Positions 115 through 2,210 of a stretch of DNA of 64,000 nt are shown here, piece after piece (the stretch's first letter is position 1; each line of letters opens with the position of its first letter). The notes under the pieces are model-generated. The model made no database searches, was not told the origin of the DNA, and worked only from the letters and a program-made list of their open reading frames with translations. Location of the stretch: IMG/VR virus record IMGVR_UViG_3300022602_000025; one strand, 5' to 3'. A program made the translations under genes and the position numbers. This DNA is from a virus. Lineage: Duplodnaviria > Caudoviricetes.

Positions 115-669
115 ATGTATAACTTTATAAGACAAATAACTGAAGGTAGATTAGGAAAGACACTAGAGCGTGTTAAGCTAGAGTATCCTTTAGATGGGCT
201 GGGCCGAAGCCTGAGCAAGCAAACTATGAACTATCATTACGGCAAGTTATATAAAACCTACTGTGATCGATATAATGCAGGAGAAGGTGACTTAGATTTC
301 AATGAAGCAGGCGCATACTTACACGGAGTATACTTTAGCCAATTTAGATCACCAAAAGGTTCAAACAAACCAGATGGTGCTATATTAGAGCTTATTGAAC
401 AGCATTTTAAATCGTGGGATAAGTTTCAAAAAGAATTTGAAAAGACTGCGATGGCTATACAGGGTAGTGGTTGGGTATATCTGTCAAATGACGGTGAACT
501 TAAAACAATCAAAAATCACGAAATCAAAAAAGATATCTTACTATTAGTTGATTGGTGGGAACATGCGTGGGCATTAGATTATCAAGCAGACAAAGCAGGC
601 TACTTGAATAACTTATGGAAGATCATAGATTGGTCTGTGATCAATAACAGACTAGTAATAAAAACTTGA
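115..669 (+). CDS. sod: Fe/Mn superoxide dismutase
   Basis: Metal-ligand motifs YHYGK, AYLH, GSGW and DWWEHAW. Short N-terminal extension MYNFIRQITE. Confidence 0.93.
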   Translation: MYNFIRQITEGRLGKTLERVKLEYPLDGLGRSLSKQTMNYHYGKLYKTYCDRYNAGEGDLDFNEAGAYLHGVYFSQFRSPKGSNKPDGAILELIEQHFKSWDKFQKEFEKTAMAIQGSGWVYLSNDGELKTIKNHEIKKDILLLVDWWEHAWALDYQADKAGYLNNLWKIIDWSVINNRLVIKT

Positions 670-700: not shown

Positions 701-1417
701 ATGCTTAAAATAAAAAAACTATCAGCAGCATCACAAAGCCAGTCAATGTTACAAGACATAAACTTAGAAGTTAAAGCAGGAGAAATCCACGCTGTCATGG
801 GACCTAAGTTTAGTGGAAAATCAGCACTACTACATTCAATACTAGGGCATCCAAATATACAACAAGTAGATGGATCCATTACATTTAACAAGAAAAAAAT
901 ACACGACTTAGAAACTGATGAGCGAGCAAAGCTAGGTATCTTTGTTGGTTGGCAATTTCCTCCAGAGTTTGATAACTTAACAAATTGGGAAATCGTTAGC
1001 AGGCTATACAGTGGAACAGAAAATTTAGATCTAGATTATACTACAGCATGTATGGTGCTAGACTTAGGGTTTGATCACGGAGCAAAACATCCTACCGGTT
1101 TTGAAATGAACATGGGCCAAGCCAAACGTGCTGAACTTGTACACATGTATCTATCAAAACCTTCGCTTGTGCTTATTGACGAAATTGATGTAAACGCAAG
1201 TGCAGAAGAAGTACAATTAATGGCTGCGTTTCTAAAAGATTATATCACACCAGAACGAGCAGGCATAATTACTACTAACAATCAAGAATTCCTAGATATT
1301 ATTCAACCAACACATGTTCATGTAATGAGTGAGGGAGAGATTAAATTATCAGGCGATGCAGAATTATATAAAAGGATCATTAAAGATGGGTATCCAGAGT
1401 TTTCTAAAAGCAACTAA
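701..1417 (+). CDS. sufC: SufC-like ABC ATPase, degenerate
   Basis: Collinear with SufC (GEIHAVMGP..SGKS, GIFVGWQFPPE, LIDEID, QPTHVHVM). Signature, D-loop and H-loop are altered. Confidence 0.8.
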   Translation: MLKIKKLSAASQSQSMLQDINLEVKAGEIHAVMGPKFSGKSALLHSILGHPNIQQVDGSITFNKKKIHDLETDERAKLGIFVGWQFPPEFDNLTNWEIVSRLYSGTENLDLDYTTACMVLDLGFDHGAKHPTGFEMNMGQAKRAELVHMYLSKPSLVLIDEIDVNASAEEVQLMAAFLKDYITPERAGIITTNNQEFLDIIQPTHVHVMSEGEIKLSGDAELYKRIIKDGYPEFSKSN

Positions 1418-2210
1418 AGGTGATCCGGATTGGGCGTTTACTCCAGAACAATATTTTGAGAAAGAATTTAAATTAATCGATGCTAACTTGATAGAATTAG
1501 GTCAAGATAAAACTGATAAGATTATTCTACGCCAAACACCTACAGAAAAAGAAATGCTGGCCAAGCACTTGCGTATTGATGTACGTGAGAACGCTAAACT
1601 AGACGTCACTATTATTAACGAAGCTAGCGATAAATTACAGCAAGTATTCCTTTACGACATCCGTGTACGTGAGGGCGGGCATATTAATCTTGGTGCATTT
1701 ATTAAGGGCGGAAAACTAAACAAACATATTTTCCAAGTAATCCTTGATGATGGTGCTAATTTTAATGCTTATGGATATGCTCATAATGATGTAGGTGGCG
1801 ACTCTGAATTTATTACTAAAATAGAGCATCAAGGTCCTTATAGTGTTAGCAATCAATATTTTGTATCAGAAGCTGGAAAGAATAGTCAAACAGTATTCCA
1901 ATCAATGATCAACATATTCCCTGACGCAAACTACTCGCAAGTTGGCATTGAAAACGAAAACTTAATCACAGGTGATGAAGGCCGTTGTCAAAGTGTCCCT
2001 GAAGTATACAATCATACATCAACATCAAATGTCAGCAACGCAACTGTTACTAACCCTTTGGAAGATGATAAAGTTTACTATCTACAGAGCCGCGGTATTT
2101 CAAAAGCAGATGCTAAAGCTCTACTAATTTCTGCCCACAGAAAAGCAGTGCTAAACATACTACAAAATTCAGAAATTAAAGAAGAAGTTGAGCAACTGTT
2201 AGTAGACTAA
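1386..2210 (+). CDS. SufD/SufB-like beta-helix protein, N-terminally shortened
   Basis: C-terminal YYLQSRGISKADAKALLI is typical of SufB/SufD, and the gene is adjacent to sufC. The ATG at 1386 is preferred over 1329. Confidence 0.75.
   Translation: MGIQSFLKATKGDPDWAFTPEQYFEKEFKLIDANLIELGQDKTDKIILRQTPTEKEMLAKHLRIDVRENAKLDVTIINEASDKLQQVFLYDIRVREGGHINLGAFIKGGKLNKHIFQVILDDGANFNAYGYAHNDVGGDSEFITKIEHQGPYSVSNQYFVSEAGKNSQTVFQSMINIFPDANYSQVGIENENLITGDEGRCQSVPEVYNHTSTSNVSNATVTNPLEDDKVYYLQSRGISKADAKALLISAHRKAVLNILQNSEIKEEVEQLLVD

What the first reader, a model, noticed from the sequence alone, without database searches (positions are those of the whole stretch)
701..2210. SufC and SufD-like pair with catalytic residues systematically lost: pseudo-enzyme mimic of the host SUF scaffold
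Seen versus E. coli SufC/SufD from memory: Walker A GPNGSGKST becomes GPKFSGKSA, signature FSGGEKKR becomes MNMGQAKR, D-loop SGLD becomes VNAS, and H-loop VTH becomes TTN. In the partner, SufD KCSHG aligns to NVSNA, losing the Cys and His. The ORFs are intact, overlapping and have an early promoter. No sufB or sufS is in the window. Inference: not a working auxiliary metabolic pair but a decoy or adaptor that binds host SufB/SufBCD to redirect or block Fe-S assembly, possibly feeding phage QueE or disabling Fe-S-dependent defences.
Basis: partly seen in the sequence, partly recalled or inferred. Interest (0 to 1): 0.72.

Follow-up and report, generated by a model that had tools for sequence, protein, structure and literature searches.

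The report
Non-catalytic SufC-SufD relic in jumbo phage
A freshwater giant phage keeps only two genes of an iron-sulfur-cluster assembly operon that its relatives still carry whole; both have lost key catalytic residues yet remain under strong selection, so they probably do a new, non-catalytic job.

Summary
Window 701-1417 encodes a SufC-like ABC ATPase and 1386-2210 a short (274 aa) SufD-like protein; they overlap by 32 nt and follow an intact Fe/Mn superoxide dismutase gene. The signature motif, D-loop and H-loop His of SufC and the essential His360 of SufD are lost. Walker A, the Q-loop and Walker B Asp-Glu are kept, so "Walker A lost" is wrong.

The main new finding is a reduction series. 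Phages of the same family (DNA polymerase 75% identical, same flanking fibre gene) carry a complete, canonical sod-sufB-sufC-sufD-sufS-sufE/T-sufA operon at this position. Others carry sufC-sufD-desulfurase-iscU-iscA. A large derived clade, including this window, keeps only sufC'-sufD'. Motif decay coincides with loss of the other suf genes.

The pair is nevertheless under purifying selection (omega 0.02-0.10 in close pairs). It has a new invariant Cys and an inverted conservation profile.

It is therefore not a working scaffold and not simple decay. The decoy idea is neither shown nor excluded. The variable dimer edge argues mildly against a conserved host SufB target.

The scan noted the same module on other DNA (e1-5364903).

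The parts
115..669 (+). Fe/Mn superoxide dismutase gene (184 aa), apparently intact
   Evidence: Sod_Fe_C E 7e-24. PDB SODs match at E 6e-30. The four metal ligands (His41, His70, Asp146, His150) are conserved in 29 of 29 phage copies. The gene lies directly upstream of sufC' in many relatives.
701..1417 (+). sufC' : SufC-like ABC ATPase, 238 aa, predicted to bind nucleotide but to be impaired in hydrolysis
800..826 (+). Walker A GPKFSGKSA (kept: GxxxxGKS)
   Evidence: Lys and Ser/Thr are kept in 44 of 44 relatives.
944..967 (+). Q-loop VGWQFPPE (Gln kept)
1106..1129 (+). Degenerate ABC signature MNMGQAKR (canonical FSGGEKKR)
   Evidence: The motif is lost in all 39 members of the derived clade.
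1166..1201 (+). Walker B LVLIDE (Asp-Glu kept) followed by degenerate D-loop VNAS (canonical SGLD)
1265..1285 (+). H-loop IITTNNQ: catalytic His replaced by Asn
   Evidence: His is kept in 24 of 45 distinct relatives; the others have K, N, R, Q or S.
1386..2210 (+). sufD' : short SufD-like protein, 274 aa, made of a beta-helix and C-terminal helices. It overlaps sufC' by 32 nt.
   Evidence: The AF2 model has pLDDT 93.5. Foldseek top hits are SufB/SufD of 5awf, 5awg and 1vh4.
1419..1433 (+). Invariant N-terminal GDPDW motif, a variant of the SufD 'E-x-W-K-Y-T' motif. It lies in the most conserved segment of the protein.
1980..1994 (+). GRCQS with clade-invariant Cys201 (E. coli SufD Val343 / SufB Ala416)
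   Evidence: It lies in the predicted dimer interface.
2028..2048 (+). NVSNATV: equivalent of E. coli SufD K-C358-S-H360-G. Both Cys and His are lost (Val216, Asn218).
   Evidence: The position is variable in the clade.
2076..2096 (+). YYLQSRG: conserved C-terminal motif (E. coli SufD Y374, L375, G379) in the domain that docks SufC
   Evidence: Docking itself is inferred from 2zu0/5awf as described in PMC5571166.

Best explanation
The two genes are the conserved, non-catalytic remnant of a complete phage-borne SUF operon. The ancestral locus was sod-sufB-sufC-sufD-sufS-sufE/T-sufA. This lineage deleted sufB and everything downstream of sufD, leaving sod-sufC'-sufD'.

Shown:
- the reduction series among related phages;
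- motif decay that coincides with loss of the partner genes;
- continued strong purifying selection;
- a new invariant Cys201;
- a shift of conservation to the N-terminal cap and first rungs of SufD'.

Inferred mechanism:
- SufD' dimerises through the usual end of its beta-helix. Each protomer carries one SufC' on its C-terminal helices, giving a SufC'2D'2-type complex.
- SufC' still binds ATP-Mg, because Walker A Lys/Ser, Walker B Asp and the Q-loop Gln are conserved.
- SufC' cannot form a productive ATP sandwich or hydrolyse efficiently, because the signature, D-loop and H-loop His are gone. It would therefore act as a nucleotide-latched switch rather than a motor.
- The complex no longer assembles clusters, having no SufB partner in the phage and no His360.
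- I think it most likely works as a stand-alone binding module. Its conserved N-terminal end is the side where SufB receives sulfur from SufE. It would engage a partner in iron, sulfur or Fe-S handling during infection.

My odds:
- relic plus pseudo-enzyme under selection: about 0.85;
- stand-alone neofunctionalised complex in Fe/S homeostasis: about 0.35-0.4.
For: Same phage family:
- The DNA polymerase is 75% identical and the giant fibre gene flanks the locus in the same way.

Reduction series:
- L050, L052, L061 and L063 carry sufB with all 10 E. coli key residues, canonical sufC, short sufD with the His, sufS, sufE(/T) and sufA.
- All 39 derived loci and the window carry only sufC'-sufD'.
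- The 99%-complete relative G001 has one SUFBD gene, one SufC-like ABC gene, and no SufS, IscU or SufA.

Decay mapped on the tree:
- Phage SufCs are monophyletic. A basal canonical group is followed by a derived clade (support 99) in which the signature was lost once.
- The H-loop His and Walker B Glu were then lost repeatedly and independently.

Selection:
- Omega is 0.038-0.096 for sufC' and 0.020-0.041 for sufD' in unsaturated pairs.

Rate inversion:
- In the derived clade SufC' is less conserved than SufD' in 778 of 820 pairs (mean identity 44.5% against 52.1%).
- In the basal group SufC is the more conserved in 6 of 6 pairs. E. coli against a cyanobacterial-type operon gives 61% for SufC and 33% for SufD.

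New constraints:
- Cys201 is invariant in the 121 derived-clade proteins (>=48% identity) compared.
- N-terminal residues 1-26 show 0.6 bits of entropy, against about 2.0 bits for the canonical cluster site and dimer strands.

Fold and pairing:
- The AF2 model has pLDDT 93.5 and its top Foldseek hits are SufB/SufD.
- Two copies of SufD' score 0.54, best of 3 controls 0.01. That mark was reached by 20 of 30 proteins solved as pairs of one chain and by 1 of 23 solved as single chains. The three runs agree in at least 93% of contacts, and partner pLDDT is at least 86. The interface is residues 194, 196-204 and 206-224. SufD homodimers are already solved (1vh4, 2zu0), so this pass may reflect likeness only.

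Phage-specific family:
- No such SufD' was found in 185,579 species genomes.
- E-values drop from 1e-58 within the phage clade to 1e-17 for cellular SufD/B.
Against: - No biochemical datum exists. ATP binding, stoichiometry and any metal content are all inferred.
- The homodimer prediction uses the same edge that SufD uses to bind SufB, so it does not exclude a hybrid with host SufB.
- The window's copy keeps the Walker B Glu and the Q-loop, so residual ATPase activity cannot be excluded.
- Cys201 may be purely structural.
- The mapping of the conserved N-terminal rungs onto SufB 'region A' (C254 to Gln50) rests on a low-identity alignment.
- The link to Fe/S homeostasis rests only on ancestry and on SOD synteny. 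SOD is missing in G001 and distant in G010.
Confidence: 0.4

Rival explanations
1. Decoy or poison subunit. SufD', with SufC', takes the place of host SufD-SufC on host SufB-SufC. The resulting hybrid scaffold cannot ligate or release clusters, which blocks or redirects host SUF.
For: - In E. coli, SufD H360A still forms the complex but is inactive, and no other residue can replace the His (PMC5571166). SufC ATPase activity is required in vivo (Saini 2010, cited in PMC13228346).
- The phage pair has exactly these defects.
- It keeps the canonical pairing edge in the model.
- The phage has no SufB of its own.
Against: - The pairing strands and former cluster site are the least conserved part of SufD', at about 2 bits against 0.6-1.3 elsewhere. 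The SufB face they would target is strongly conserved in cells. The N-terminal conservation is left unexplained.
- Sister phages carry a full working SUF set at the same locus, and an intact SOD is usually linked. Both point to support of Fe-S metabolism.
- Some relatives encode about 10 radical SAM enzymes that need clusters.
- The host is unknown and no binding test was possible.
Confidence: 0.25
2. Ordinary auxiliary metabolic genes. The pair is a working SufC-SufD half-scaffold that tops up host SufB to boost Fe-S assembly under oxidative or iron stress.
For: - The ancestry is a functional SUF operon.
- SOD is linked.
- Walker A, the Q-loop and Walker B Asp-Glu are intact in the window.
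- Viral Fe-S assembly genes are a recognised class (PMC8940887).
Against: - The His360 equivalent is Asn here and varies across the clade, although it is essential and strictly conserved in SufD (PMC5571166; bioRxiv 10.1101/2022.03.29.486248).
- The signature motif is lost in the whole clade. The H-loop His is lost here. The Walker B Glu is lost in about 30% of relatives.
- Constraint on these residues disappeared exactly when sufB, sufS and sufE were lost.
- Scores fall below both curated NCBIfam cut-offs.
Confidence: 0.07
3. The pair has been co-opted for a role outside iron-sulfur metabolism, for example an ATP-binding assembly factor or structural helper for the adjacent giant fibre.
For: - The giant fibre gene lies immediately downstream in all relatives examined.
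- Beta-helix proteins are common in phage fibres.
- Retention of the pair does not track SOD or radical-SAM content.
Against: - The fibre adjacency is also present in phages with the full SUF operon, so it is inherited synteny.
- No virion or assembly signal was found.
- Foldseek hits to fibre and pectate-lyase folds are insignificant (E above 0.08).
Confidence: 0.15
4. The pair is a slowly decaying leftover with no function.
For: Neighbouring suf genes have been lost, catalytic residues are mosaically eroded, and SufC' evolves faster.
Against: - Both ORFs are intact in all 54 loci.
- The translational overlap is maintained.
- Omega is 0.02-0.10 in close pairs.
- Many columns are invariant across proteins only 36-50% identical.
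Confidence: 0.03

Closest known systems
E. coli SufBC2D scaffold and the SufC2D2 sub-complex (PDB 5awf, 2zu0, 1vh4)
   Same: - SufC has the same ABC fold and SufD the same beta-helix plus C-terminal helices.
- The sufC/sufD genes overlap in both: 26 nt in E. coli and 23-32 nt here.
- The YL-x-SRG docking motif and the N-terminal Trp motif are kept.
- Pairing is predicted through the same beta-helix end.
   Different: - There is no SufB partner in the phage.
- SufD' lacks about 135 residues of the N-terminal half of the helix.
- His360 and Cys358 are lost.
- The SufC' signature, D-loop and H-loop are degenerate.
- Cys201 is a new invariant residue.
- The conservation profile is inverted.
Complete SUF operons in sister jumbo phages (IMG/VR contigs behind L050, L052, L061, L063)
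   Same: They belong to the same phage family and sit at the same genomic position. They have the same short 274-aa SufD architecture with the xDPDW and NKHI motifs.
   Different: These phages keep sufB, sufS, sufE/T and sufA (plus a glutaredoxin in L052), canonical SufC motifs and the SufD His. The window has lost all of these.
Two-gene minimal SMS system SmsC2B2 of archaea (PMC12192291; PDB 9h78)
   Same: It has a two-gene ATPase plus SufB/D-like architecture and forms a heterotetramer. SmsC (MJ0035) matches at E 7e-18 and SmsB is a Foldseek hit.
   Different: - SMS binds its cluster on C-terminal Cys residues of SmsC and has an active ATPase. SufC' has no conserved Cys.
- The SmsB model scores 13 bits against a cut-off of 650.
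- The phage pair derives from a bacterial-type SufCD, not from SMS.
Degenerate nucleotide-binding sites of heterodimeric ABC proteins (CFTR, TAP1/2, TM287/288; from general knowledge)
   Same: Walker A is retained with a non-canonical signature, H-loop or Walker B Glu. Such sites bind ATP without efficient hydrolysis.
   Different: In those proteins the degenerate half pairs with a consensus half inside one transporter. Here no consensus partner is encoded by the phage, and there is no membrane domain.
Viral Fe-S cluster assembly auxiliary genes (sufE, nifU/iscU, sufA/iscA in viromes; PMC8940887)
   Same: These are phage-borne genes of Fe-S biogenesis, interpreted as support under oxidative stress.
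   Different: Those genes are presumed to be functional single components. This is a SufC-SufD pair with lost catalytic residues. I found no paper describing it.

Membership tests
SufC (TIGR01978, Fe-S cluster assembly ATPase) | Score above the curated equivalog cut-off | tested here: not met
   157.8 bits against a cut-off of 212.8; NF007134 scores 120.7 against 400.
SufC (TIGR01978, Fe-S cluster assembly ATPase) | Walker A GxxxxGK[ST], Q-loop Gln, Walker B Asp plus catalytic Glu | tested here: met
   GPKFSGKSA, WQFP and LIDE are present.
SufC (TIGR01978, Fe-S cluster assembly ATPase) | ABC signature (F)SGGE, D-loop SGLD, H-loop His | tested here: not met
   The window has MNMGQ, VNAS and TTN. 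Of the 39 cellular SufCs compared, all 39 have SGGE and SGLD and 39 of 39 have the H-loop His.
SufC (TIGR01978, Fe-S cluster assembly ATPase) | ATPase activity | not testable with these tools
   This needs the purified protein.
SufD (TIGR01981) | SUFBD core fold (beta-helix plus C-terminal helical domain) | tested here: met
   PF01458 E 9e-33. The AF2 model has pLDDT 93.5. Foldseek matches 5awg, 5awf and 1vh4 at E 1e-9, probability 1.00.
SufD (TIGR01981) | Score above the curated cut-off and full-length architecture (about 420 aa) | tested here: not met
   108 bits against a cut-off of 222. The protein is 274 aa and lacks roughly E. coli residues 50-185.
SufD (TIGR01981) | Essential, strictly conserved His360 at the SufB-SufD interface | tested here: not met
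   The equivalent is Asn218 here. Across the clade the position reads H10, Y10, I6, T4, S4, Q4 and others. Essentiality is from PMC5571166.
SufD (TIGR01981) | Genomic partnership with sufB and sufS in the same replicon | tested here: not met
   None is present in the window or in the 99%-complete relative G001. Both are present in basal sister phages.
SMS minimal system (SmsC/SmsB) | SmsB family score; C-terminal Cys cluster site on the ATPase | tested here: not met
   NF052511 scores 13.2 bits against a cut-off of 650. No Cys column in SufC' exceeds 59% conservation.
Fe/Mn superoxide dismutase (neighbour gene 115-669) | Two SOD domains and the His-His-Asp-His metal ligands | tested here: met

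The most novel reading that the evidence does not exclude
The derived SufC'-SufD' pair is a virus-evolved pseudo-enzyme that plugs into the host's SUF machinery. It would act either as a poison SufD-SufC half on host SufB, or as a trap for the SufE/SufS sulfur relay at its conserved N-terminal end. The phage would thereby gate host iron-sulfur cluster production during infection. This would be a first case of a viral pseudo-scaffold controlling Fe-S biogenesis.
Probability: 0.25. Interest if true: 0.8.

Novelty: new variant of a known kind. Interest (0 to 1): 0.6.

Why it matters
The function of SufD and the role of the SufC ATPase are still debated in Fe-S biology. This phage family offers a natural experiment with dozens of lineages. 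In it, SufC-SufD is retained for a long time without SufB, without the essential His and without the ATPase signature, while sister phages keep a complete SUF pathway.

That pattern argues that SufC-SufD has, or can acquire, a function separable from cluster assembly. It also supplies ready-made comparison sets (canonical, intermediate, degenerate) for biochemistry.

In addition, it documents complete SUF operons in jumbo phages and shows how an auxiliary metabolic operon is dismantled.

Tried and rejected
- GenBank phage DNA search: no match. The protein hits there are host-like contigs, or the host-like sufBCDS-iscU at the end of the Microcystis phage MaAM05 record. These are not relatives.
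- No whole genome is held for the window. Relatives were used instead.
- The SufD tree against cellular SufD/B puts the phage clade on a long branch with no supported sister (SH-aLRT 43). The donor is therefore unknown.
- The closest cellular SufCs of the canonical phage SufC (45-50% identity) come from mixed phyla. They give no hint of donor or host.
- A genome-contig scan found no phage-type SufD'. Its patterns were built from the derived clade and could miss basal-type copies.
- Sigma-70 promoter and T4 late-promoter scans give nothing above chance.
- CX3CX2C radical-SAM motif search: none in the window's ORFs.
- Sequencing runs: no RNA holder is listed, so expression timing could not be addressed.
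- 'SOD metallochaperone' idea: weakened, because G001 lacks SOD and G010/G011 have it about 125 kb away.
- 'Feeds the phage's radical SAM enzymes' idea: not general, because G010 (92% complete) has at most one weak hit.
- Many long-distance dN/dS values are saturated (dS infinite or above 1.5). I rely only on the close pairs.
Full report
**What is there.** The window is a fragment of an uncultured freshwater T4-like jumbo phage.
- It encodes a T4-type DNA polymerase and a ClpA-like protease, with dense same-strand genes.
- Relatives are 330-358 kb long.
- The DNA recurs in lake and freshwater metagenomes.
- At its left end lie three co-oriented genes, followed by a small minus-strand zinc-ribbon gene and a 2457-aa fibre gene:
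  - an Fe/Mn superoxide dismutase at 115-669;
  - a SufC-like ABC ATPase at 701-1417;
  - a SufD-like protein.
- The SufD' start is ATG 1386, not GTG 1329. The whole family is 274 aa long with a conserved MGIQSFLK N-terminus, and AAGGA lies upstream. The overlap with sufC' is therefore 32 nt. It is 23-32 nt in relatives and 26 nt in E. coli sufC/sufD.

**Checking the observation.** Family assignment is secure, but both proteins fall below the curated equivalog cut-offs: SufC 157.8 against 212.8 bits, SufD 108 against 222. Alignment with E. coli SufC and SufD confirms the quoted substitutions.
- The signature FSGGEKKR becomes MNMGQAKR.
- The D-loop SGLD becomes VNAS.
- The H-loop TH becomes TN.
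- SufD K-C358-S-H360-G becomes N-V-S-N-A.
- Walker A GPKFSGKSA still satisfies GxxxxGK[ST], and the Q-loop Gln and the Walker B Asp-Glu are intact. The loss is therefore selective.
- SufD His360 is essential and cannot be replaced by any residue in E. coli (PMC5571166). It is described as strictly conserved (bioRxiv 10.1101/2022.03.29.486248).
- The 'early promoter' is not supported.
- No other suf gene is in the window.

**The family.** Metagenomes hold a large phage-only family of both proteins.
- An exhaustive search shows a gap from E 1e-58 within the phage clade to 1e-17 for cellular SufD/B.
- A pattern scan of 185,579 species genomes found no phage-type SufD'.
- In 54 viral loci, sufC' lies directly upstream of and overlaps sufD'. 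The one exception is a locus cut at its edge. SOD lies within 3 kb in about 31 of the 54.
- The 99%-complete relative G001 has exactly one SUFBD gene and one SufC-like ABC gene. It has no SufS, IscU, SufA or SOD.

**The key result: a reduction series.** Motif tables, a SufC tree and gene content agree.
- Phage SufCs are monophyletic.
- A basal group (L050, L052, L061, L063) carries, at the same genomic position, sod-sufB-(grx)-sufC-sufD-sufS-sufE(/sufT)-sufA. All ten functionally mapped SufB residues are conserved. The SufC motifs are canonical (GPNGAGKS, SGGE, ILDE, SGLD, ITH). The short SufD still has the His plus a nearby Cys.
- These contigs belong to the same phage family. Their DNA polymerase is 75% identical, and the same giant fibre gene follows the locus.
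- A second type (L053-L060, L062) has sufC-sufD-cysteine desulfurase-iscU-iscA and no sufB. Erosion has begun there (SAGE; Walker B Asp-Asp).
- The derived clade (39 distinct loci, support 99, including the window) keeps only sufC'-sufD'. All members lack the signature motif.
- After that single loss, further residues were lost independently in different sub-lineages:

| Position (45 distinct loci) | Residues found |
|---|---|
| H-loop His | H 24, K 6, N 5, R 4, Q 4, S 2 |
| Walker B Glu | E 32, D 10, N 2, T 1 |
| SufD His360 equivalent | variable |
| Walker A Lys and Ser/Thr | kept 44 of 44 |

**Not decay.** Both genes remain under purifying selection.
- In pairs close enough for dS to be unsaturated, omega is 0.038-0.096 for sufC' and 0.020-0.041 for sufD'.
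- The usual rate order is inverted. In cells SufC is far more conserved than SufD (61% against 33%). In the basal phages SufC is also the more conserved. In the derived clade SufC' is the less conserved in 778 of 820 pairs.
- SufD' has new constraints. Cys201 (E. coli SufD Val343) is invariant.
- The most conserved parts are the N-terminal cap with GDPDW, a variant of the SufD E-x-W-K-Y-T motif, and the first rungs, at 0.6-1.3 bits.
- The former cluster site and pairing strands are the most variable, at about 2 bits.
- The linked SOD keeps all four metal ligands in 29 of 29 copies.

**Structure.** The AF2 model of SufD' (pLDDT 93.5) is a shortened beta-helix with three C-terminal helices.
- Foldseek finds only SufB, SufD and SmsB at significant scores.
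- Two copies are predicted to pair. The score is 0.54, best of 3 controls 0.01. That mark was reached by 20 of 30 proteins solved as pairs of one chain and by 1 of 23 solved as single chains. The runs agree in at least 93% of contacts, and partner pLDDT is at least 86.
- Pairing goes through residues 194, 196-204 and 206-224. This is the same beta-helix end used in SufD2 and SufB-SufD. SufD dimers are already solved, so the pass may reflect likeness. It does not discriminate a homodimer from a hybrid with host SufB.

**Interpretation.** Constraint on the ATPase and ligand residues vanished when the phage's own sufB, sufS and sufE were lost. The remnant is therefore unlikely to run the canonical cycle with a host SufB. 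A working-half model would have kept His360 and the signature motif.

Two readings remain.
- (i) A neofunctionalised stand-alone SufC'2D'2 that binds ATP but is a poor hydrolase, and that works through its conserved N-terminal end.

I favour (i) slightly, for four reasons.
- The edge that would have to recognise the very conserved SufB face is the fastest-evolving part of SufD'.
- N-terminal conservation is unexplained by a decoy.
- Sister phages invest in a full SUF pathway.
- SOD is usually linked.

None of these is decisive. Client-supply ideas are not general. Radical-SAM load varies from about 10 genes (G001) to at most 1 (G010) among phages that all keep the pair.

**Novelty.** Viral Fe-S assembly genes are known as a class (PMC8940887). 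I found no paper on phage SufC/SufD pairs, on complete SUF operons in jumbo phages or on their degeneration. Absence from the searched library is not proof. An earlier first-stage note of this scan (e1-5364903) saw the same sod-sufC-sufD module with lost residues on another genome. Its motif strings match my L031/L036 lineage.

Noticed in passing
L050:263-6034 (also L052, L061, L063): Sister jumbo phages carry a complete SUF pathway: sod-sufB-sufC-sufD-sufS-sufE-sufT-sufA. In L050, SufE and SufT(DUF59) are fused in one 231-aa protein. In L052, a glutaredoxin gene lies between sufB and sufC.
   Followed up: yes
L056:2256-5642 (also L053-L060, L062): A hybrid SUF/ISC set occurs in other relatives: sufC-sufD-cysteine desulfurase-IscU-IscA without sufB. 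The Walker B Glu is already replaced by Asp.
   Followed up: partly
window:2207-2494 (-): A 95-aa protein with two CxxC pairs (zinc-ribbon-like) has no family match. It is conserved downstream of sufD' in L001 (9522-9809). A similar 92-94-aa minus-strand gene precedes sod in L001 and L002.
   Followed up: no
window:2564-9937 (+): A giant 2457-aa fibre-like protein lies directly after the suf remnant. Homologues of 2107-3431 aa sit in the same position in all relatives examined, with mosaic conservation.
   Followed up: partly
window, whole: The T4 late-promoter motif TATAAATA occurs once, against 7.1 expected by chance. This T4-like phage probably uses a different late promoter.
   Followed up: no
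G001:C1:11000-23500 (IMGVR_UViG_3300020045_006153): A cluster of about nine radical SAM genes within 12 kb in a 99%-complete relative. The cluster is absent or much smaller in other relatives (G010).
   Followed up: partly
L066 (MW495066.1 264309-273876): The end of the Microcystis phage MaAM05 record carries panC and a full-length host-type sufB-sufC-sufD-sufS-iscU block. This is either host-derived or an assembly join. It is unrelated to the phage-type family.
   Followed up: no
L001:2605-6956, L002:2164-6268: Upstream of the sod-sufC'-sufD' module, relatives share ClpP-like protease, PTPS/QueD-like and UvdE (UV damage endonuclease) genes. Together these form a stress and repair neighbourhood.
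   Followed up: no
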